From Clostridia bacterium (lineage in GTDB: Bacteria > Bacillota > Clostridia > TANB77 > CAG-508), in NCBI GenBank assembly GCA_900768805.1, contig CAAGEF010000115.1:11407-75406 (forward strand): a stretch of DNA of 64,000 nt. Reading direction: 5' to 3'. Below, piece after piece: positions 3,704-53,760 of this stretch (its first letter is position 1; every line of letters begins with the position of its first letter). Under the pieces are notes generated by a model. It ran no database searches. It was not told the origin of the DNA and worked only from the letters and a program-made list of their open reading frames with translations. Both the position numbers and the translations under genes were made by a program.

Positions 3704-4042
3704 TTATTTTTTCTTTAGCCATATTTTTCCGTCTACTAATTCAGTAGGTTCATCTCCAAATTCTATCCTTAACATTGTATCTGTTTTATTTAAAAGATAA
3801 GTTTGTAGTTTACTTATTCTTGATACTAAACAATTAAACAAATCAGCATTTATTGGTGTAAATTTTTCATTATCTGCTAAATTTGCGGTCGCAGCAGTAG
3901 CATCATCATTAACAATAGTACTATAATTTTCTCGCCATTCTTTGTTATCTAAATTAGAATCTTGTATAAATAATAATGGGTCAATACTAGTAGGATATTT
4001 AGATTCTTTATTATTCTTTAAATAATTATATATTTCTGCCAT
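3704..4042 (-). CDS. hypothetical protein (112 aa)
   Basis: Intact ORF. Confidence 0.3.
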   Translation of the reverse strand: MAEIYNYLKNNKESKYPTSIDPLLFIQDSNLDNKEWRENYSTIVNDDATAATANLADNEKFTPINADLFNCLVSRISKLQTYLLNKTDTMLRIEFGDEPTELVDGKIWLKKK

Positions 4043-4054
4043 ATTAGTACCTCG

Positions 4055-4390
4055 TTATTTCTTTAAAACTCTATAAATATCTCCGTCAACCGGACTACTA
4101 GGAAAATCTTTCGTGGAATCAACATAGATAATCTGTTGTCCTTTTGTTTTTGCATAAATTTGAGTATTTCGAAGTTCTTCTACAAGAGTCTCCATTTTTT
4201 CAGCGTCAATACAATAATCACCAAGATTATATGTATTAAAAATACTAAATGCTAATTTGTAGTTATAATTTTCAATAGCAGTATTAAATTCTTGTATCTT
4301 TGGTAAAATATCTGAATCAATATCTTTAAATGTTGGCATATTAATAATTGAACTTGGAAAATTAGAATAATTATGTGTATAATTTGCCAT
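4055..4390 (-). CDS. hypothetical protein (111 aa)
   Basis: Intact ORF. Confidence 0.3.
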   Translation of the reverse strand: MANYTHNYSNFPSSIINMPTFKDIDSDILPKIQEFNTAIENYNYKLAFSIFNTYNLGDYCIDAEKMETLVEELRNTQIYAKTKGQQIIYVDSTKDFPSSPVDGDIYRVLKK

Positions 4391-41138: not shown

Positions 41139-42707
41139 TTATTCAGTTCCATTTTTATTTTTATCACGAGTATTTACGCCTTCTTCTGTTAATTCGTCAT
41201 CTTTTTTCTTAGGAGCACCAGTAGAATTTGCTGTTTTTCCTGATTGCGTATAACTTGAAGTTAAAGGAACTAACCATTGATTAATATTAAGAACTGTTGC
41301 ATTGAATTTTACATCATTAATTACTTCATATGGTGTCTTTCCAGTTACGCACACAAAATAATCAATTGGATTGCCGCCCAAAGTAGCCATATCTTTCATC
41401 ATATTAGTATATGACTCTCTATTGTACCAAGAGATTTGATGGAATCTAAATTTATAACCCTCTGATATATTATTTTTTATATAATAATTCATCCATGATT
41501 CAATTCTTGTCACAAATATCCATATTGTACTAAGATCATTTTCAATAGCATGACCTAAACCAACACTATTAGTACTTGCACCACCTGCAACAACTAATTG
41601 TGACATACCTGCATTATTAAATAAATTGTTCATAGATTGTGCAAGTTTATCTATATTATCTGTATTATTTGATTTGTTAAATTCTACAGTGTCTATTTCC
41701 ATTGGACTATATGCAACACCAACTAATTCAGGAACTACTTGTTCAAGTAATTCATTAAAAGTTTTTGCCAAATCAAGACTAATTGCAAAATCATCTACAT
41801 CTTCAGTATTTTTCATTAATGGAATTTTACTTACTAATAAAATATAATTTTCCAATTCTGTTCTATCTGCTAATAATTGCTCTAAATCAAGTAAATCTAA
41901 TAATTCAACAAAAATACCACTTAAGAAAGGTAATGGCATATCAAATTCATCATCAGTTCCGGCAATAACACATAAAGTTCTTTCAGGTGTCAAACGAAAC
42001 CATTGAAAATCATTTCCACCAGTTTTATATTCATTATAGCCATCAACAAAACATTGATCCCATACGCCTACACCATCTTCATTAATACCTTTAACAAAGT
42101 CTTTATTATTTCCTTTGTCAAAATATGCTGCATTAAAATAAACAATCCATTCACCTTCAGGAGTTTTTCCATAAATACGACAATATTGAACATCTAAAGG
42201 CATAAAGAAAGAATTACCATCTTCACCATCATAAAAGAAACCTACATATATACCATCTCTTATAACATTGGCAATAACGTTATAAAATTCTTTTTGCATT
42301 TGTATTCCATTTAATCTTTTAAGAACTGTTTCATAATTTTTTAAAGATTTGTTTGCATTAATCGTTTTTGAAAGCTCATTCATTTGAGTAACAGAATAAA
42401 GAAAGAGAGGAGCAGTACTATAATAATATATCATTTTTTTATATATCATAGAATTACGTACTAAAAAACGTGATACTTCTCTAATTGTATCAATATTAGC
42501 ACTTGGAGAAGCTAAATATTGTTGAATTAAAGATTTTGTATACTGCATGAAAGTACGATTACTATTTTTATTAACATTCCTTTGTAATAATTCTTGAATT
42601 TTTGAAAAATTCATTTTAAATGCACGTTCTCGTTTTAATTTATAATCGTCTTTTTCATTTTTTGTTATCATTTTGGTTTCTGACATTTTTCTTCCTCCTT
42701 TCTTCAA
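41139..42707 (-). CDS. portal protein candidate (522 aa)
   Basis: Directly downstream of the large terminase. Size and acidic C-terminus typical of portals. Strong RBS GGAGGAAG. Confidence 0.45.
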   Translation of the reverse strand: MKKGGRKMSETKMITKNEKDDYKLKRERAFKMNFSKIQELLQRNVNKNSNRTFMQYTKSLIQQYLASPSANIDTIREVSRFLVRNSMIYKKMIYYYSTAPLFLYSVTQMNELSKTINANKSLKNYETVLKRLNGIQMQKEFYNVIANVIRDGIYVGFFYDGEDGNSFFMPLDVQYCRIYGKTPEGEWIVYFNAAYFDKGNNKDFVKGINEDGVGVWDQCFVDGYNEYKTGGNDFQWFRLTPERTLCVIAGTDDEFDMPLPFLSGIFVELLDLLDLEQLLADRTELENYILLVSKIPLMKNTEDVDDFAISLDLAKTFNELLEQVVPELVGVAYSPMEIDTVEFNKSNNTDNIDKLAQSMNNLFNNAGMSQLVVAGGASTNSVGLGHAIENDLSTIWIFVTRIESWMNYYIKNNISEGYKFRFHQISWYNRESYTNMMKDMATLGGNPIDYFVCVTGKTPYEVINDVKFNATVLNINQWLVPLTSSYTQSGKTANSTGAPKKKDDELTEEGVNTRDKNKNGTE

Positions 42708-42751: not shown

Positions 42752-44218
42752 TTAAGAAAAACGTGTTGCTTTCTTTGGAGCACGTATTTTGAAAATTTGA
42801 TTATAATTTGTCTCTTGTTTTTTTGGGCGTTTCATAAGTTCTTTTCTACGTTCACACATAAGGGCATAAGAAGCAAGGCAACAAGTGTAAGCTCTATCAT
42901 CATGCATTTTATTAGCCTTTTCAGCAGTTAATTCAAAAGAGTCTTTACCAGATTCACGTTTTTTACGAACCATATTAACTAATTCTTCTTTTAAAGCGTC
43001 TATATTAGTTAAGGCTATTTTATCTTGCCAATCTAATTTTATCATTTTGGTCTTTACTGATTGAACTTGTTGCATTTCTTCTTCAAGTTTACTTGCCAAG
43101 ATTTCTTCCGGAATTTTTTCTTTTTTTAATTTAGCAATTATTTTTTCTCGCTCTTGTGATAATTTCTTTTCATCAATATCAAAAATAGTTAAATAATCCT
43201 TACCATCATAAGAAGAGGTAAAAGAAATTTTATTTTGATTCATAAGTTCAATCATAGCTTCATACATTTCTGACTTATACATGGTTGGTGAAATTAATTT
43301 TACCTTATCTACAGCATTAGGAAATTTCTTAATATATTCAGCAGAATATTCTTTATCAATTAATCCTCTATGTGTACTGCCAGATTTATCAGTCCAATCT
43401 GACATGAGATAATCAGCAATATTTACACCGCCACCACCTGAACCAGCGTCAATATAAATACCAATAATATTTCCATAAGCATCTGCACCCCCATTATAAT
43501 CTAAAATAACTTGTTTTAAATATTCTATTTGGTCAGGAGTTTGCATAGGTGATTTTATTTTTTTACCAACATCTATTAAATTAATACAATTGACAAGTCT
43601 CATTCGTTTATCGATTGAACCGTCAAGTTCTTTATAATCATATATTTCTCCTACTAAAATAACAGAATTGTCTCGACTTCTAGCTGGGTCATAACAAATT
43701 ACAAACTTTTTGTCACCAGTATCATTATAAAGAAGAGGTTTCCTTATTTCTTCATTTCTAGTAATAACTCCTCTTTTAATAATTGCATTTTCACCAGCTT
43801 CAGTTGTAAATTGACAATAATATTCTCTTCTTGCTTTTTCTGGATTAGTTCTCATTTCTGATTCTACAGTGGAACGAGATAGAAGAGGAGCAATTAATTC
43901 TCCATGCATTGTAGGTTTAAATGCTAATTCACAATCAATATGTAATACGCAATAATCTGGATCTCCCATAATTTGTTTTTTTGCAAAGTCTTTATATAAA
44001 GCAAAAAATTTTGTGTCTGTACTAGAAGCGGAGCTAATATATATTTTTTGATAAGGCATATCAGCAGGAAAACATCTTTGTCTAATAGGATCAATAGATT
44101 TTCCACTTGCGTCTTTACCCGTTTTCATGCTTCTGTTAACAGCAGCAAAAGCACTATATACGTTCATCATTTCTTCAGATAAAAAACCACTCTCATCAAA
44201 AACGACACTTCCACGAAA
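42752..44218 (-). CDS. terL: terminase large subunit, exon 2 (Walker B plus RNase H-like nuclease domain)
   Basis: Begins FRGSVVFDESGF (Walker B hhhhDE). Nuclease-domain motifs GIYIDAGSGGGGVN ... KANKMHDDRAYTCCLASYAL. The track's Met (44219-21, AUG) is the last three intron nucleotides, ending in omega G. Confidence 0.7.
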   Translation of the reverse strand, partial: FRGSVVFDESGFLSEEMMNVYSAFAAVNRSMKTGKDASGKSIDPIRQRCFPADMPYQKIYISSASSTDTKFFALYKDFAKKQIMGDPDYCVLHIDCELAFKPTMHGELIAPLLSRSTVESEMRTNPEKARREYYCQFTTEAGENAIIKRGVITRNEEIRKPLLYNDTGDKKFVICYDPARSRDNSVILVGEIYDYKELDGSIDKRMRLVNCINLIDVGKKIKSPMQTPDQIEYLKQVILDYNGGADAYGNIIGIYIDAGSGGGGVNIADYLMSDWTDKSGSTHRGLIDKEYSAEYIKKFPNAVDKVKLISPTMYKSEMYEAMIELMNQNKISFTSSYDGKDYLTIFDIDEKKLSQEREKIIAKLKKEKIPEEILASKLEEEMQQVQSVKTKMIKLDWQDKIALTNIDALKEELVNMVRKKRESGKDSFELTAEKANKMHDDRAYTCCLASYALMCERRKELMKRPKKQETNYNQIFKIRAPKKATRFS

Positions 44219-45793
44219 CATTTGTTATCCTATAAGCTTTTTATCTCATAGTTCTTATAGTTATCATTTCTATAAGTTCGGCATATCTTTTCACCTACGT
44301 CTTTACGTTTAGGTGGTGCTGACTCGTGGAGAAATTATATTCTATAAATAGGTTCATTCTCTATGCTCTGCGTGTGACTAGAATTTTACAACTAGCCTTC
44401 CACTCGGATTAGCATTCCAGCTTTCCCGATTTCTTCAGCACTATAATAAAAAATCCAGTTATTTCTAACTGGCGAGGCTCACATTACGCTATGTTTTTGA
44501 CTTTTAGATATTTCTTGTATTTTCTATCTAAATATATATTGCAATCTTTATATATCCAATCCAAAAATTGTATCTTATCTTTTTTTCTGTTAATGTCTAT
44601 ATTATATATTTCAGAATTAAATTCACTAATATAAGAACTTGTTGAAACGTTAATTTTTATTGTTTCTAATATTTTTAATAAATCAACGTATAATTTATTT
44701 GACGCAGTAACAAATCTTATATTAAAAGATTTGGCAGTGTATGTAAAACAACCATCACCATCAAAATACCCTCGTATATAATGTCTAATTAAGTCTTTTG
44801 GTATAAAAGGAATATTAGCATCATAAGTCTTATTATTGGTAAAACCAATATTTACCAAAGAATTATACATAACCAATGAAAAAATTCTAATGCAGCAAGT
44901 ATGATTCTTTTTATTCTTATCTTTAGTAGATATCTGACATTCTCTCCATCTATCAGTAATTTTATAATTACCAGAAATAGATTTATTAAATTTTTTTAAA
45001 TGTCCAATATCGTTGTATTGTAGTTCTATACCGAGTGCGCCAGCATTAGTTTTTGTATTTTTATTTATCCATCCATCTGCTGTTAAAAAACCTAGCCAAT
45101 ATGCTTTTTCTTCTGTGTCTATGCTATCAAAGAAATTATAATTGCAATAATAAGGATATTTTTTTATCCCATTTTTTCTAGCTTTTAATTTAATAGCGTT
45201 TGGAGTACGATTAAGAATTGTAGCAATATCAGAAGTTGGCATATTTATATAATTATTTTTAACAAATTCTATTTCTTCATCAGTCCAAGGTTTTTCTTTT
45301 TTATATAAATTTAATTCAAAACATTTAGCTCTTACAGCTTGTTCTGTACGATTTAATTTTTTACCGATTTCTGAATGAGTCATTATTTCAAAATTTTGCA
45401 TTAAAAAAGAGACTTCTTTTTTAGTCCAATTTTCATTACGGACTAAATTTAATTTGTCTCTTTGAGTGTTTATTGCATCAATACTATGATTAACATATTT
45501 TGAAATTTCTTCAGAAGTCATATCAACAAAATGGTCTTTAAGAAAATTAATTTCTTCATTAGTCCATTTATTATGCATTTGTTTAGTTAAACCAAGTTTT
45601 CTAATTGCATTAGAAATACTATTGTATGTTTTATCTAAATCTTTACACAAATCTTTTATTGTCTTATTATCATAATTTTTTTTAATGTAATTTAATTGTT
45701 CTTGTGTATAACCTTTTATAGTCATTATTATTTTTTCTCCTTAATAATATTCAAATAATAAAAAATACGAGTAGCACACTCGTACAAAATTCG
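44219..45793 (-). other. group I intron in terL (1575 nt)
   Basis: 5' exon ends AAAGAGGU. IGS GCCUC lies just after the HEG stop and before P2 CCAGUUA-GAAA-UAACUGG, giving P1 GAGGU/GCCUC with U.G. P3 GUGCUGA/UCAGCAC. P4-P5 UCGGG-AA-AGC-UGGAAU-GCU-AA-UCCGA. P6 GGCUAG...CUAGUC. R-like CGCAGAGCAUAGAG and S-like AAGAUAUGCCG give P7 GCAUA/UAUGC. P7.1-like GAGAA...UUCUC. P8 CACCUA...UAGGUG. P9 CUUAUAG...CUAUAAG. Omega G at 44219. Confidence 0.7.
44484..45725 (-). CDS. intron-encoded LAGLIDADG homing endonuclease (413 aa)
   Basis: Two LAGLIDADG motifs (AYWLGFLTADGWI and IRGYFDGDGCF) after an N-terminal region of repeated HTH-like modules. RBS AAGGAG. Lies wholly inside the terL intron. Confidence 0.8.
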   Translation of the reverse strand: MTIKGYTQEQLNYIKKNYDNKTIKDLCKDLDKTYNSISNAIRKLGLTKQMHNKWTNEEINFLKDHFVDMTSEEISKYVNHSIDAINTQRDKLNLVRNENWTKKEVSFLMQNFEIMTHSEIGKKLNRTEQAVRAKCFELNLYKKEKPWTDEEIEFVKNNYINMPTSDIATILNRTPNAIKLKARKNGIKKYPYYCNYNFFDSIDTEEKAYWLGFLTADGWINKNTKTNAGALGIELQYNDIGHLKKFNKSISGNYKITDRWRECQISTKDKNKKNHTCCIRIFSLVMYNSLVNIGFTNNKTYDANIPFIPKDLIRHYIRGYFDGDGCFTYTAKSFNIRFVTASNKLYVDLLKILETIKINVSTSSYISEFNSEIYNIDINRKKDKIQFLDWIYKDCNIYLDRKYKKYLKVKNIA

Positions 45794-46375
45794 ACCTCTT
45801 TTTGCGTCTATATTAGAGTTCAATGTTTGAGTCATAGAACCATTATATAAAGAATAATTAAAACCATTTGAGCTATGGCTAAAACCATCTCCGGCAGCGT
45901 TCTTAATTTCTATTTCATTTTTAAATACTTTACCTGTTGAGCCAGTAAAAGTGTCAATATTATCGTTAGCAAGCCTTTCTAACGTAGTAAAAGTCTGTTC
46001 TGCTTGAGAACCAGAACCACTAGCGATATAACTCCAATAATTGCAAAAACACATATCCTTTGACATTATTGATAAATCTATTACTGTACTTTTTCCCCAA
46101 CCACGAGTGCATACTAAAAGAGCATTAGGACAAATCCAAGTTTTTTGTACAGCAAGGGCTTGTGAATCAAGAAGCTCGATATTAAACATTATATCTATAA
46201 ATTTTACAGGATTGCATTGAAAAAATTTTTGCATTTTTGCTATTTCTAATAGAGACTCTATTTTTCTAGTAGATAATGGATAATTAATTGGCTTTACAAA
46301 AATTCCGTAATCTTTATAAAAATCTTTATCATAATCTAATGGTGGATCATTATAAGGTAGTAGAATTTGATTCAT
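45794..46375 (-). CDS. terL: terminase large subunit, exon 1 (ATPase N-domain with Walker A)
   Basis: LVCTRGWGKSTVI (Walker A GxGKS/T), upstream LDSQALAVQKTW, and NGSMTQTLNSNIDAKRG just before the splice site. The track ORF's last 21 codons (RILYECATRIFYYLNIIKEKK*) are intron. Confidence 0.7.
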
Positions 46376-47684
46376 TATTTTCTACCTCCTCATTTTCCTC
46401 TGAAATATTTTCTTCACTATTTGTTTCTTCGTTTTCTTCTTCACTTGAAAATACAGAATATAAATCTCTTAAATTTTTATAAGTGATACCAGTATTAATA
46501 TGATTATCTTCAAAATAATCTTTTAAATCTAAATTTTCTTGTAAAAGAATCCTATTGATTTCTTTATAAGCATCTCGTTCTTTTCTTAATGCTGTATTAT
46601 CTTTTCGCATTTCTGCGACCATATCTGACCATTCAGACTCATCTAAAGCTAATTGTTTCATTATAGAAGCATCACTTATTTCTTGTACTTGTTGCATACC
46701 CCTACAAGTAGCAATATCAAAGCCATTTACTTGACCATCCCTAAGATTAAGTTCTTTTATTTTTTTAATTTTTCCTGTCCATGTATTTTCGCCTTTTTTA
46801 GCATTCTTATTATTTTTTAATGAAATACAACTTTCAGCAGCAAGGTTAGTAATCATACTAGTGATTTTAGATTTACTATCTTGTAAAGATTTAATAGTTG
46901 CTGAGTTTTTATCAATATTTTTTATGTCAGACATTAAATTAGCTATAGCATTATCAATTTTATTTGATTGTAAAAAGCCTCTTACTATAGATATGGCAGA
47001 AGCATTTCGCATCATATCTTCGTTTTCATCTCCACCTGTATCTAATAATCCTAACAATTGTGAATATAAAAAAGGCTGATCAGAAATGGCTTCTTGTTCA
47101 AATGGGTCATATCCTAAAAGCCTTGTTACATCTTTTTTATTTTTTATATACTCATCATAAGAATCCGAATCTAAATTATTTTCTTTTGTTTTTTCTTCAA
47201 CTTTTTCTTCATAATTAGTTTCTTTAAAAAAATCAGAATCAGAATAAGTAAGTCCTATATATTGAACCATAGCAATATTTTTTACATATGCTGACCATAC
47301 ATTAGATTTTGTTTTTCCAGATACAAGATTTTCTGATTCTTGTATACTAGATTCCCAAACAGAATTTAAAAAAGGTTTGTTAAGATACATAAGTGCTTTT
47401 ATTACGCTATCTTTAGTAGGTTCATGTTCTTCTCCTTTTTTATCTACTCGTAGTGCAATTTTTTTTGCACAATCCATACAAATAGGAGTCTTTCCTGAAT
47501 GTATCATTGGGTCAGTACTAACATAAAATTTATCTTTTTTTTTAGGGTTGTTACACATATAACACCATGCATAATCTTCTTTTAAAGACCTTACTTGTTC
47601 TTTTAAATTTTGAATTTCTTCTTTCATTTGTGTAGGAGTTAATTTGGCTTCCACACTATTTTTCCTTGTAGTTGTCATACGCAA
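46350..47684 (-). CDS. hypothetical protein (444 aa) upstream of terL
   Basis: Occupies the position where a small terminase subunit is usually found, but is far larger than typical TerS. Zn-ribbon (CYMCNN...CMDC), coiled coil and acidic C-terminal tail. Confidence 0.3.
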   Translation of the reverse strand: MRMTTTRKNSVEAKLTPTQMKEEIQNLKEQVRSLKEDYAWCYMCNNPKKKDKFYVSTDPMIHSGKTPICMDCAKKIALRVDKKGEEHEPTKDSVIKALMYLNKPFLNSVWESSIQESENLVSGKTKSNVWSAYVKNIAMVQYIGLTYSDSDFFKETNYEEKVEEKTKENNLDSDSYDEYIKNKKDVTRLLGYDPFEQEAISDQPFLYSQLLGLLDTGGDENEDMMRNASAISIVRGFLQSNKIDNAIANLMSDIKNIDKNSATIKSLQDSKSKITSMITNLAAESCISLKNNKNAKKGENTWTGKIKKIKELNLRDGQVNGFDIATCRGMQQVQEISDASIMKQLALDESEWSDMVAEMRKDNTALRKERDAYKEINRILLQENLDLKDYFEDNHINTGITYKNLRDLYSVFSSEEENEETNSEENISEENEEVENNESNSTTL

Positions 47685-47696
47685 CCCCCTTTTTTA

Positions 47697-48536
47697 TTAA
47701 TTTAATAAAAAAGAAGCTTCTTCAGCTTCTTCATTTAAATACTTTTCTATTTTTTTTAATTTTCGTTTTAAACAAAATACTTCACGATTAGGATATAAAT
47801 TATTAATTAAAATTTTCATGCTATCACAATTAGTACACATTAATCTATATTTTCTATCGTTTTCCATATAAATTTGAGTTCTAATATTATATTTTAATAA
47901 TTTATTTTGTAGATACTCAAGTATTTTTTGAGATGCACACGTCATATGTAAAAAAATACAATTTGGTCTTTTCTTACTATTCCAGTAGCAACCATCTCCA
48001 TCAATATATCCGCGCAAAAAATCAAAAAATAATTCATCTGATATAATTGGGTATATATCTTTTTTTGTTTTATTTGTTACTATTCCATTATTTATTAAAT
48101 CTAACACTAAAGGTTTTGAAAGAACTCTTAAAGTACTAGTTTCTTTCCTATTGGCTTCTATGCCATTAATAGTAATTTTCATAGGTGAAGTATGAGTAAT
48201 CATATGAATTCCACCAAGTTCTTCATTTATTTTATTTAAAATATATTCATCTTGAGATTGTAATTCTATTCCAAATTCATAATTTTTTGTTTCATTATTT
48301 GCACACACCCATCCGTCAGCAAAAATAAATCCAATAAAATAAGCTTTCAATGGAGTGTCTATATATTGAAAATATCTATTGTTAAATGTACGATTCTTTC
48401 TATATCCTAATTTAGACATTTTTGTTCTTACTTGTTTATCTGTTAAACCTAAATGTTCTGCAATTTTTGAATATTCCATTGTTTTATAATTTGCTATCAT
48501 ATAATCTAACATTTCTTTAGTAAAAATACTTTTCAT
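47697..48536 (-). CDS. free-standing LAGLIDADG homing endonuclease (279 aa)
   Basis: AYFIGFIFADGWV and LRGYIDGDGCY motifs. No flanking split gene recognised. Confidence 0.7.
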   Translation of the reverse strand: MKSIFTKEMLDYMIANYKTMEYSKIAEHLGLTDKQVRTKMSKLGYRKNRTFNNRYFQYIDTPLKAYFIGFIFADGWVCANNETKNYEFGIELQSQDEYILNKINEELGGIHMITHTSPMKITINGIEANRKETSTLRVLSKPLVLDLINNGIVTNKTKKDIYPIISDELFFDFLRGYIDGDGCYWNSKKRPNCIFLHMTCASQKILEYLQNKLLKYNIRTQIYMENDRKYRLMCTNCDSMKILINNLYPNREVFCLKRKLKKIEKYLNEEAEEASFLLN

Positions 48537-48648: not shown

Positions 48649-48721
48649 TCGAGTAGACAGGATTCGAACCTACGACCACTTGATCCCAAATCAAGCATTC
48701 TACCAACTGAACTACTACTCG
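48649..48721 (-). tRNA. tRNA-Pro (UGG)
   Basis: Cloverleaf: acceptor CGAGUAG/CUACUCG; D-loop AGUUCAGUUGGUAGAA; anticodon stem CUUGA/UCAAG with loop UUUGGGA; T-loop GGUUCGAAUCC. Confidence 0.8.
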
Positions 48722-52902: not shown

Positions 52903-52975
52903 AGTGGAAGTAGTGAGGTTCGAACTCACGACTCTCGCCTTAAAAGGGCGATACTCTACCAACTGAGTTACACTT
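52903..52975 (-). tRNA. tRNA-Lys (UUU)
   Basis: Acceptor GGAAGUG/UACUUCC; anticodon stem UCGCC/GGCGA with loop CUUUUAA; T-arm GUGAG-UUCGAAC-CUCAC. Confidence 0.8.
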
Positions 52976-53087
52976 CCTTATAATTGCACACCGTTTTAAT
53001 TGTATGTACAACAATAATAATTTCAAACCTAGACCTTGTTTTATGTCATAATCTAGTTTGACAGAGATTTTGTTTGATTTTATGAAA

Positions 53088-53158
53088 TACCGGATACGAG
53101 AATCGAACTCGTACTCTACGGATGAAAACCGTATGTCTTGCCTTTTGACTAATCCGGC
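53088..53158 (-). tRNA. tRNA-Glu (UUC)
   Basis: Acceptor GCCGGAU/AUCCGGU; anticodon stem UACGG/CCGUA with loop UUUUCAU; T-arm ACGAG-UUCGAUU-CUCGU. Confidence 0.7.
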
Positions 53159-53688: not shown

Positions 53689-53760
53689 CTCCCCAAGTAG
53701 GACTTGAACCTACAACAACTCGGTTAACAGCCGAGTGCTCTACCATTGAGCTATTGAGGA
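53689..53760 (-). tRNA. tRNA-Asn (GUU)
   Basis: Acceptor UCCUCAA/UUGGGGA; D-arm GCUC-AAUGGUA-GAGC; anticodon stem CUCGG/CCGAG with loop CUGUUAA; T-arm GUAGG-UUCAAGU-CCUAC. Confidence 0.8.

What the first reader, a model, noticed from the sequence alone, without database searches (positions are those of the whole stretch)
44219..45793. Group I intron with LAGLIDADG endonuclease splits the large terminase between Walker A and Walker B; the HEG appears to sit in the P1 loop
Exon 1 carries Walker A (TRGWGKST) and ends ...NIDAKRG. Exon 2 begins FRGSVVFDESGF (Walker B). Neither ORF alone is a functional TerL. The only sequence complementary to the 5' exon end (GCCUC pairing GAGGU with U.G) lies after the HEG stop codon, immediately before a P2 hairpin with a GAAA loop. 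This implies the whole 1.24-kb HEG ORF is in L1, an unusual placement. The rest of the IA-type core (P3-P9, P7.1) follows in 260 nt.
Basis: partly seen in the sequence, partly recalled or inferred. Interest (0 to 1): 0.65.

Follow-up and report, generated by a model that had tools for sequence, protein, structure and literature searches.

The report
Self-splicing intron splitting phage terminase gene
A phage DNA-packaging (large terminase) gene is interrupted by a 1.6-kb mobile group I intron whose homing-endonuclease gene sits, unusually, inside the very first loop of the ribozyme; it is a good new example of a known kind of element, from an intron family that the standard RNA database model does not detect.

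Summary
On the minus strand, a 1575-nt insert (45793..44219) splits a 682-aa large-terminase gene. Joining the exons gives a product that aligns without gaps across the junction (DAKRG|FRGSVVFDESGF) to more than 100 uninterrupted homologs, up to 90% identical.

The last 260 nt fold as a group I core (P2-P9.1, a P3/P7 pseudoknot, omega-G). In 14 related phage introns, 88% of cells pair, against 31-43% in slid controls, and 47 of 66 pairs change on both sides.

The comparative evidence stands in for it.

The guide sequence GCCUC lies directly 5' of P2, as in every relative, and it covaries there with twelve 5' exon ends of nine different sequences. The 413-aa LAGLIDADG gene therefore lies in the P1 loop (L1, 1315 nt). 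Three other public phage introns of this family have the same layout.

Terminase introns and endonuclease genes in P1 are both already known, so this is a new member of a known kind. No splicing or cleavage was tested.

The parts
45794..46375 (-). TerL exon 1 (194 codons; Walker A CTRGWGKST; ends ...AAAAGAGGU)
   Evidence: ORF list. Gapless alignment of the spliced product to uninterrupted homologs.
44219..45793 (-). Group I intron, 1575 nt. 5' splice site after U45794; terminal omega-G at 44219.
45728..45793 (-). Read-through of the exon-1 frame into the intron: 21 codons, then UAA UAA UGA. The first stop ends 2 nt before the endonuclease AUG.
45765..45785 (-). Hairpin GUACGAGU-GUGCU-ACUCGUAU followed by a U-rich tract, inside L1 and 9 nt after the 5' splice site. 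Flagged as terminator-like; role unknown.
45737..45742 (-). Shine-Dalgarno AAGGAG for the endonuclease gene
44484..45725 (-). Homing endonuclease gene, 413 aa. Four N-terminal helix-turn-helix repeats plus a double-motif LAGLIDADG domain (WLGFLTADGW, IRGYFDGDGC). Lies wholly inside the P1 loop.
   Evidence: Pfam LAGLIDADG_3 2e-12; phrog_4645 2e-49; homologs in L1 of L004 and L008
45406..45413 (-). GUCUCUUU, an alternative 8-nt complement of the 5' exon end inside the endonuclease ORF. A possible decoy; not at the family's guide-sequence position.
44474..44478 (-). Internal guide sequence GCCUC (3' strand of P1). Pairs with exon GAGGU, with U-G at the splice site.
   Evidence: its position matches the guide sequences of the 11 relatives examined
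44455..44472 (-). P2 hairpin CCAGUUA-GAAA-UAACUGG
44316..44441 (-). P3 (GUGCUG 44441..44436 with CAGCAC 44321..44316). It encloses P4 (44429..44425 / 44408..44404), P5, P6/P6a (44403..44372), the P7 5' strand and P7.1 (44361..44329).
44280..44368 (-). P7 pseudoknot: G[A]GCAUA (44368..44362) with UAUGCC (44285..44280), the presumed guanosine-binding helix. P8 (44314..44293) and J8/7 GAAAAGA lie between the strands.
   Evidence: 100% paired, three covarying pairs
44219..44276 (-). P9 (44276..44254), P9.1 (44251..44230) with the invariant loop GAUAAAAAG, and the tail GAUAACAAAUG ending in omega-G
42752..44218 (-). TerL exon 2 (488 codons; begins UUUCGU = FR; Walker B VVFDES; C-terminal nuclease-like domain)

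Best explanation
A mobile group I intron carrying its own LAGLIDADG homing endonuclease gene is inserted in the large-terminase gene of an SPbeta-like gut phage. The insertion is at the codon boundary G194|F195, seven codons before the Walker B aspartate.

**Inferred mechanism.**
1. The gene is transcribed as one pre-mRNA.
2. The ribozyme core occupies the last 260 nt of the intron.
3. P1 forms by long-range pairing between the exon end GAGGU and the guide sequence GCCUC, 1.3 kb downstream and next to P2.
4. An external guanosine bound in P7 attacks after U45794.
5. Omega-G 44219 then takes its place and the exons are ligated, restoring a 682-aa terminase.

**The endonuclease gene.** It fills the P1 loop and has its own ribosome-binding site. 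Its start lies 2 nt after the stop of the exon-1 reading frame. The protein presumably cuts intron-less terminase alleles (AAAAGAGGT^TATCGTGG) in co-infecting relatives, so that repair copies the intron in.

**What is shown:** the split gene, the conserved and covarying ribozyme structure, the position of the guide sequence, and the sporadic distribution of the intron.

**What is inferred:** splicing, endonuclease activity, homing, and any coupling between translation and splicing.
For: - **Junction.** The spliced product aligns without gaps to more than 100 uninterrupted homologs. An intron-less allele was recovered.
- **Terminase identity.**
  - Walker A and B lie about 107 aa apart.
  - The portal gene is next downstream.
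  - The top PDB fold hits are terminases.
  - There is a 26% identical match to 'terminase-like' genes of C. difficile phages.
  - The protein aligns through the junction with the Enterocloster phage TerL, which matches Terminase_6N.
- **Core structure.** 88% of cells pair against 31-43% in slid controls. The covariation score is 0.569 against at most 0.154. P7 is 100% paired. P3 is perfect in 13 of 14 introns. The fold has z = -4.2.
- **Group I rules.** U-G at the 5' splice site and a terminal G.
- **P1.** Guide sequence and exon end covary in 12 introns (9 distinct exon ends). In the 10 scored, cognate pairings reach 5-8 bp against 3.6 for non-cognate. The joins restore Walker A or polymerase motifs.
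- **Mobility.** The family is found in 136 phage records and in many different genes. Only 3 contigs carry this endonuclease.
- **Endonuclease.** It is a LAGLIDADG protein with both motifs intact.
Against: - Rfam RF00028 gives no hit to this intron or to any family member, even at E<=10.
- P1 is only 5 bp and must close a 1.3-kb loop that is being translated.
- A second complement of the exon end exists inside the ORF.
- A hairpin plus U-tract near the 5' end looks terminator-like.
- The terminase itself has no Pfam, PHROG or PDB sequence hit, and its structure model is poor (pLDDT 51).
- There are no RNA or activity data.
Confidence: 0.85

Rival explanations
1. The intron is real, but P1 uses a different guide sequence: GUCUCUUU at 45413..45406, inside the endonuclease ORF. 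The ORF would then straddle L1 and a very long P1-P2 linker instead of lying wholly in L1.
For: It can form 8 consecutive pairs with AAAGAGGU, including the U-G at the splice site. That is longer than the 5 bp of GCCUC.
Against: - In all 11 relatives examined the guide sequence lies directly 5' of P2 (or of P3 where P2 is absent), and it covaries with the exon there.
- GCCUC occupies exactly that slot and has 3 G-C pairs.
- GUCUCUUU is U-rich coding sequence with 2 G-U pairs, in a 24% GC ORF.
- A 930-nt J1/2 linker has no counterpart in the family.
Confidence: 0.06
2. The terminase is genuinely made as two polypeptides, as in split genes caused by free-standing endonuclease insertions. The intron-like RNA would be a non-splicing relic. 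Exon 2 would be translated from the AUG at 44221, with AGGA upstream.
For: - Gene callers call exon 2 as an ORF starting at that AUG.
- Exon 1 ends in stop codons.
- No splicing data exist.
Against: - Every invariant core position of the family is intact in the window copy.
- All helices pair.
- GGAUAACA is conserved in family members that have no AUG there, so it is a ribozyme feature, not a ribosome-binding site.
- The cut falls seven codons before the Walker B aspartate, inside the ATPase fold.
- More than 100 homologs are single chains.
Confidence: 0.05
3. The insert is some other kind of intervening element: an intein, a group II intron, or an insertion sequence.
For: RF00028 is negative.
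Against: - It is not an intein. The exon frame hits three stop codons, and the endonuclease has its own ribosome-binding site and start in another frame.
- It is not a group II intron. There is no reverse transcriptase and no Rfam group II hit.
- The secondary structure has group I topology, with the P3/P7 pseudoknot, J8/7 GAAAAGAUAU and a terminal G.
Confidence: 0.02

Closest known systems
Group I introns in phage large-terminase genes (Bastillevirinae, 5 of 52 genomes, PMC11878797; Lactobacillus phage LL-H, from my own recollection)
   Same: A self-splicing group I intron of IA type, often carrying a homing endonuclease gene in a loop, interrupts terL at a conserved ATPase motif.
   Different: Those introns were found with Rfam and GISSD models, whereas this family is invisible to RF00028. 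The host is an SPbeta-like phage of gut Firmicutes. The endonuclease is a LAGLIDADG protein with four helix-turn-helix repeats, and it sits in L1.
Nuclear rDNA group I introns with endonuclease genes in P1 (myxomycete S1389 introns, PMC8395846; Physarum I-PpoI intron, from my own recollection)
   Same: The endonuclease gene is inserted, in sense orientation, in the P1 extension between the 5' splice site and the guide sequence.
   Different: Those are eukaryotic nuclear rRNA introns of subgroup IC/IE with His-Cys box enzymes. This one is a phage protein-coding gene, has an IA-like core, and encodes a LAGLIDADG enzyme translated from a bacterial ribosome-binding site.
Phage T4 td / nrdB / sunY introns (subgroup IA2) with I-TevI-III (own recollection)
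   Same: A phage group I intron in an essential gene, with P7.1-type extensions and a guide sequence followed by a P2 hairpin. The exon reading frame stops shortly inside the intron. The endonuclease has its own start.
   Different: The T4 endonuclease genes sit in P6 or P9 loops and are GIY-YIG or HNH enzymes. Here the gene sits in L1 and is a LAGLIDADG enzyme.
Unannotated relatives of the same intron family in public phage genomes: Enterocloster CB457P1 TerL, phiCD211 tape measure, Staphylococcus 6ec and CF1, Bacillus PJN02 helicase, Leptolyngbya Lbo-JY46 polymerase, crAss-like cr128_1 capsid
   Same: The same core (70-78% identical over 120-220 nt), the same helices, and the same guide-sequence position. 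CB457P1 and MT835481 carry the intron before Walker B of TerL; for CB457P1 a pairwise alignment confirms it is the homologous ..RG| site. L004, L008 and L138 share the L1 LAGLIDADG layout.
   Different: The host genes, the exon/guide sequences and the endonuclease cargo all differ. Some have none, some have HNH or GIY-YIG in L5, and one has an ORF after P8. The window's endonuclease is the largest, because of its four helix-turn-helix repeats.

Membership tests
Group I intron | 5' exon ends in U, which forms a U-G wobble with an internal guide sequence (P1) | tested here: met
   GAGGU|, with GCCUC at 44478..44474. The guide-sequence slot covaries with the exon end in 12 family members; in the 10 scored, cognate pairings are 5-8 bp against 3.6 non-cognate.
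Group I intron | Intron ends in G (omega-G) | tested here: met
   G44219. The join at this base restores the reading frame and matches the intron-less allele. Every relative for which a 3' end was assigned also ends in G.
Group I intron | Conserved core P3-P9 with the P3/P7 pseudoknot and the P4-P6 and P3-P8 domains, supported by covariation | tested here: met
   88.3% paired, 47 of 66 pairs with changes on both sides, P7 100% paired. P3 perfect in 13 of 14; z = -4.2.
Group I intron | Guanosine-binding site in P7 (a G-C pair next to a bulged nucleotide); J8/7 and J4/5 junction motifs | tested here: inconclusive
   The sequence is compatible: G[A]GCAUA/UAUGCC with a bulged A, J8/7 GAAAAGAUAU resembling the Rfam consensus GAAGAUAU, and J4/5 AA. 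No three-dimensional or biochemical test was possible.
Group I intron | Match to the Rfam RF00028 covariance model | tested here: not met
   No hit at gathering score or at E<=10 for the window, nor for the 13 related loci scanned. The same search found a different intron in L001 at 93.6 bits. This is a database criterion, not a biological definition.
Group I intron | Self-splicing with a guanosine cofactor | not testable with these tools
   Needs in-vitro transcription and splicing, or RT-PCR.
Group I subgroup IA | Extra helices (P7.1/P7.2) between the P7 5' strand and the P3 3' strand | tested here: met
   P7.1 (44361..44329) is 96% paired, with 4 of 5 pairs covarying. The finer subgroup (IA1, IA2 or IA3) was not determined because no GISSD models were available.
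LAGLIDADG homing endonuclease | LAGLIDADG fold with two motifs, each carrying a catalytic acidic residue | tested here: met
   Pfam LAGLIDADG_3 2e-12; phrog_4645 2e-49; motifs WLGFLTADGW and IRGYFDGDGC.
LAGLIDADG homing endonuclease | Site-specific cleavage of the intron-less allele | not testable with these tools
   The candidate target from L135 is ...GCGAAAAGAGGT^TATCGTGGTAGT....
Terminase large subunit | N-terminal ATPase with Walker A and Walker B, plus a C-terminal RNase H-like nuclease | tested here: met
   GWGKST at 92-97 and VVFDES at 199-204. Foldseek top hits are 8dgc_E, 6m5u_A and 5m1o, all terminases. The model is weak (pLDDT 51), so the fold part is only suggestive.
Terminase large subunit | Match to a curated terminase family model | tested here: not met
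   No Pfam, PHROG or PDB sequence hit. Indirect support comes from a pairwise alignment to the CB457P1 TerL, which matches Terminase_6N; source names 'Terminase large subunit'; and the portal gene next door.

The most novel reading that the evidence does not exclude
This intron belongs to a widespread subgroup of phage group I introns with no Rfam model (136 phage records) that RF00028 misses entirely.

Within the subgroup, a lineage carries its LAGLIDADG gene in the P1 loop. The 5' splice site must then find its guide sequence across 0.75-1.3 kb of actively translated RNA.

If so, ribosome traffic on the endonuclease gene could gate P1 formation and so time terminase production. Here the gene starts 2 nt after the exon-frame stop. 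This would be a translation-splicing switch in a late gene.

The family also appears to home repeatedly to GGU| glycine codons of P-loop and Walker-B-proximal motifs in unrelated ATPases.
Probability: 0.15. Interest if true: 0.7.

Novelty: new member of a known kind. Interest (0 to 1): 0.4.

Why it matters
- **Annotation.** The two terminase fragments and the 'hypothetical' ORFs around relatives of this intron are mis-annotated in public phage genomes. Examples are split TerL, tape measure, capsid, helicase and polymerase genes. A covariance model built from this family would repair many such gene models, and it would close a blind spot in RF00028.
- **Biology.** The family shows one ribozyme scaffold carrying different endonuclease cargos in different loops (L1, L5, after P8). 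It also shows reuse of the same conserved ATPase motifs as homing sites across very distant phages.
- **Folding question.** The L1 placement raises a testable question: how is a 5-bp P1 formed across a translated 1.3-kb loop?

Tried and rejected
- **RF00028 / Rfam.** Searched at gathering score and at E<=10 on the window, on the core alone and on 13 related loci. No hit to this family. The only marginal hits (freshwater-2, FdoG thermometer, HOTAIR) are chance.
- **Covariance model.** I used nhmmer and direct pair counting instead.
- **Collection scans.** The IMG/VR pattern scan gave only 2 loci. The metagenome scan gave 120 loci that were almost all chance matches; only L053, L061 and L077 were confirmed by nhmmer.
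- **Terminase identity by sequence.** Pfam, PHROG and PDB sequence searches found nothing. The AlphaFold model was poor in the ATPase half.
- **Literature.** A search for phage introns with ORFs in L1 found nothing specific.
- **Rejected readings.** Intein, group II intron, a second copy of the intron family elsewhere in the window (none), and an alternative guide sequence close to the 5' splice site (none within 200 nt).
Full report
**1. What is in the sequence**

All genes in this part of the window are on the minus strand.
- A 215-codon ORF (46375..45728) carries a P-loop (CTRGWGKST).
- A 413-codon ORF (45725..44484) follows it.
- A 489-codon ORF (44221..42752) comes next and begins MFRGSVVFDESGF.
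- A portal gene follows (42707..41139; phrog_2739, E 6e-81).

Joining 46375..45794 to 44218..42752 gives an in-frame 682-aa protein. A database search with it returned 2870 hits. The best 120 are almost all uninterrupted proteins of 678-693 aa, 73-90% identical, covering about 100% of the query. In an alignment of 46 of them the junction is gapless: DAKRG|[F/Y/S/M/I]RGSVVFDESGF.

DNA of the closest long contig (L135, 217 kb) has AAAAGAGGT^TATCGTGG where the window has AAAAGAGGT-[1575 nt]-TTTCGTGG.

A one-base shift to the left would give the same protein. Only the stated boundaries put a U at the end of exon 1 and a G at the end of the insert.

**2. Is the host gene a large terminase?**

Sequence libraries say nothing: no Pfam, PHROG or PDB sequence hit, even with a profile.

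The indirect evidence is consistent:
- Walker A (K95) and Walker B (D202/E203) lie about 107 residues apart.
- The portal gene is immediately downstream.
- Two sources name homologs 'Terminase large subunit'.
- tblastn finds only 'terminase-like' genes of phiCD211-like C. difficile phages, at 26% identity.
- An AlphaFold model of the 90% identical homolog P0001 is poor overall (pLDDT 51; the C-terminal half reaches about 70-85). Its best PDB matches are still terminases: 8dgc_E, 6m5u_A and the G20c nuclease 5m1o.

Neighbouring genes carry YonG_N and YonD_N domains, so the phage is SPbeta-like.

**3. Is the insert a group I intron?**

RF00028 does not hit the window at gathering score, nor at E<=10 on the region or on the core alone.

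blastn shows that the last ~220 nt of the insert are 70-78% identical to unannotated stretches in about 40 phage genomes. A second query from a relative finds 136 records.

In those genomes the element always sits between two halves of a gene:

| Locus | Phage | Gene split |
|---|---|---|
| L001 | Enterocloster CB457P1 | TerL |
| L002 | phiCD211 | tape measure |
| L003 | Staphylococcus 6ec | tape measure |
| L137 | Staphylococcus CF1 | TerL |
| L008 | Bacillus PJN02 | RecD-like helicase |
| L007 | bajarodcaudo virus 1 | major capsid |
| L010 | crAss-like cr128_1 | major capsid |
| L009 | Staphylococcus vB-SscS-F1 | major tail protein |
| L138 | Leptolyngbya Lbo-JY46 | DNA polymerase |

I drew a structure for the window copy by hand, in this order:
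- guide sequence, P2 and P3;
- P4, P5 and P6/P6a;
- P7 with a bulged A, then P7.1;
- the 3' strand of P3, then P8 and J8/7;
- the 3' strand of P7, then P9 and P9.1;
- the tail GAUAACAAAUG.

The coordinates are verified.

Counted on a MAFFT alignment of 14 family members (A1):
- 88.3% of cells form standard pairs, against 31-43% when the 3' partners are slid by 1-3 columns.
- 47 of 66 pairs show changes on both sides, against 19-22 in slid controls.
- The covariation score is 0.569, against at most 0.154.
- None of 500 shuffles reaches any observed value.
- The P7 pseudoknot, P9 and P9.1 are 100% paired; P6a and P7.1 are 96% paired.

P3 scored low there only because of a one-column register shift. 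Extracted by anchors, it is a perfect 6-bp helix in 13 of 14 sequences, with 10 different sequences. Only 10.7% of non-cognate combinations are perfect.

The minimum-free-energy fold of the 260-nt core recovers every nested helix (-61.5 kcal/mol, z = -4.2, 0 of 200 shuffles as good).

Junction sequences resemble the canonical ones. J8/7-P7' is GAAAAGAUAUGCC, against GAAGAUAUAGUC in the Rfam consensus shown. One divergent member (L053) even has the canonical GACUA/UAGUC P7.

I conclude that this is a genuine group I core of IA type, belonging to a family that RF00028 does not cover. The 13 relatives scanned also give no RF00028 hit, while an unrelated intron in L001 scores 93.6 bits in the same run.

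**4. Where is P1, and is the endonuclease gene in L1?**

The candidate guide sequence GCCUC (44478..44474) lies one base 5' of P2. In twelve family members I located the 5' splice site from the reading frame and the motif restored by the join. I then looked at the same slot.

| Member | Exon end / guide sequence | L1 length |
|---|---|---|
| Window | GAGGU / GCCUC | 1315 nt |
| L001 | AGAGGU / GCCUCU | 24 nt |
| L002 | AUGCU / GGCGU | 8 nt |
| L003 | GGGU / GCCC | 11 nt |
| L004 | UGGU\|UUC / GAAGCCG | 927 nt |
| L005 | GGU\|AU / AUGCC | 11 nt |
| L007, L010 | AAGGGU / GCCCUU | 15 nt |
| L008 | GGU\|AAA / UUUGCC | 883 nt |
| L009 | GGU\|AU / AUGCC | 16 nt |
| L137 | GGU\|AAA / UUUGCC | 10 nt |
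| L138 | GCGAU / GUCGC | 753 nt |

For the ten introns scored, cognate P1 helices are 5-8 bp, against a mean of 3.6 for non-cognate pairings. L137 and L138 were read by hand.

The joins restore recognisable motifs:
- GGGGMG|KS in L008;
- GFG|KS in L004;
- ARKSG|KS in L137;
- AKSAGFAI|NYGG in L138, where the splice falls inside the isoleucine codon.

The position of the guide sequence is therefore a family constant that covaries with the exon.

Members with no ORF in L1 have an L1 of 8-24 nt. The window, L004, L008 and L138 have 753-1315 nt there. Each of these holds a LAGLIDADG ORF that starts in L1.
- In the window the ORF ends 5 nt before the guide sequence.
- In L008 it ends inside P2.
- In L004 and L138 it runs on into the core.

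The window, L004 and L008 proteins are 30-38% identical and share the C-terminal IYLDRKYK. L138 is more distant, at 27%.

Other members carry other cargos elsewhere: HNH or GIY-YIG in L5 (L003, L137), ORFs that also appear to sit in L5 (L011, L012), and an ORF after P8 (L009).

A scan of the window intron for any G-initiated complement of the exon end found none in the first 200 nt. It did find one competitor, GUCUCUUU at 45413..45406 inside the ORF (8 bp, 2 G-C, 2 G-U). About 10% of shuffled introns contain a 5-mer as good as GCCUC somewhere, so it is the positional homology that decides.

Its statement that GCCUC is the only complement does not.

**5. The endonuclease and its expression**

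The 413-aa protein has four N-terminal repeats of about 45 aa of helix-turn-helix type (weak Sigma70_r4_2 and GcrA hits; phrog_323). It also has a double-motif LAGLIDADG domain (LAGLIDADG_3 2e-12; phrog_4645 2e-49) with both acidic residues present.

A Shine-Dalgarno AAGGAG (45742..45737) precedes the AUG (45725). The exon-1 frame runs 21 codons into the intron and stops at UAA UAA UGA. The first stop ends 2 nt before that AUG.

Termination-reinitiation coupling is possible, but it is not conserved in L004 or L008, where the exon frame stops within 2-5 codons. I treat it as a weak inference.

A hairpin plus U-tract at 45785..45765 matches a terminator pattern. So does P2 with its U-rich J2/3. 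In 28% GC DNA this may mean nothing.

**6. Distribution**

- The identical endonuclease occurs on 3 metagenome contigs with the same layout.
- More than 100 close terminase homologs are uninterrupted. This sporadic pattern is what a mobile intron would show.
- Members with no endonuclease gene sit just before Walker B in two other terminases. In CB457P1 (L001..SARG|ERATFLIYEEC) a pairwise alignment through Walker A and the junction (19% identity, E 8e-4) places the intron at the homologous site. In MT835481 (L005..NALG|IRTNILIVDEF) the best local alignment is out of register at the junction, so equivalence of the site rests on motif context alone. L001 matches Terminase_6N.
- nhmmer finds only one copy of the family in the window.

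**7. Comparison with what is known**

Group I introns in terL are documented (Bastillevirinae, PMC11878797). That study notes that in 10 introns the ribozyme signature was missing on one side of the endonuclease loop. This is what an L1 insertion would look like to a model-based screen.

Endonuclease genes in P1 are documented for myxomycete nuclear rDNA introns (PMC8395846). From my own recollection, the same is true of I-PpoI.

This is therefore a new, well-supported member of a known kind, from a family that lacks a database model. Nothing here was tested at the RNA or protein level.

Noticed in passing
window 47697..48536 (-): A second LAGLIDADG gene (279 aa, one helix-turn-helix repeat; 34% identical to the intron's endonuclease). 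It lies between the YonG_N-like gene (46350..47684) and a tRNA gene. No intron core of this family and no Rfam group I hit lies nearby, so it appears to be free-standing. The same layout is seen in L136.
   Followed up: partly
window 48649..48721, 52905..52977, 53088..53158, 53689..53760 (-): Four tRNA genes upstream of the packaging module (Rfam tRNA, 62-72 bits).
   Followed up: no
window 45765..45785 (-): A 7-9 bp hairpin followed by UUUUUUAUUAUUU, 9 nt inside the intron, flagged as terminator-like. It could attenuate read-through into the endonuclease gene and exon 2, or it could be chance in AT-rich DNA.
   Followed up: partly
L002 2844..3446 (phiCD211) and L006 2433..3221 (pCD1602_4): The tape-measure gene of phiCD211 has a copy of this family, then an 11-codon mini-exon (EKVGTALKTIG), then a second intron annotated Intron_gpI that current RF00028 did not report at E<=1. 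pCD1602_4 has two copies of the family about 250 nt apart.
   Followed up: partly
L001 2379..5830 (Enterocloster phage CB457P1): The TerL is broken by at least two introns. One belongs to this family and has no ORF. The other is an RF00028-positive intron (3960..4291, 93.6 bits), followed by an I-TevI-like gene. All the pieces are annotated 'hypothetical protein'.
   Followed up: partly
L137 1593..2624, L008 2015..3160, L004 2386..3598: Three family members are inserted at the same GGU|AAA (Gly|Lys) step of the Walker A P-loop in three different ATPases: Staphylococcus phage TerL, a RecD-like helicase and a DEAH-box (Walker B LVLDEAH) helicase not otherwise classified. This suggests homing to P-loop codons.
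   Followed up: partly
L008 2084..2922 (Bacillus phage PJN02): The L1 LAGLIDADG gene is split by a frameshift inside the first LAGLIDADG motif. It is annotated as 'mobile intron protein' plus 'endonuclease'. This is either a decaying endonuclease gene or a sequencing error.
   Followed up: no
protein P0092: A 1010-aa homolog of this terminase (73% identical over 88% of the query) is about 330 aa longer than the rest. It may carry an intein or be a read-through fusion.
   Followed up: no
L007 3473..5000 and L010 4005..4094: The major capsid genes of bajarodcaudo virus 1 and crAss-like cr128_1 contain several further partial matches to this family, around 'intron associated endonuclease' ORFs. 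These capsid genes seem to carry two or three introns of the family.
   Followed up: no
Vibrio phage ICP1 records (H58-H93): 81 Vibrio records, the listed ones being ICP1 and close relatives, share a 49-nt stretch 86% identical to the P3'-P8-P7' part of the family core, mostly in unannotated DNA.
   Followed up: no
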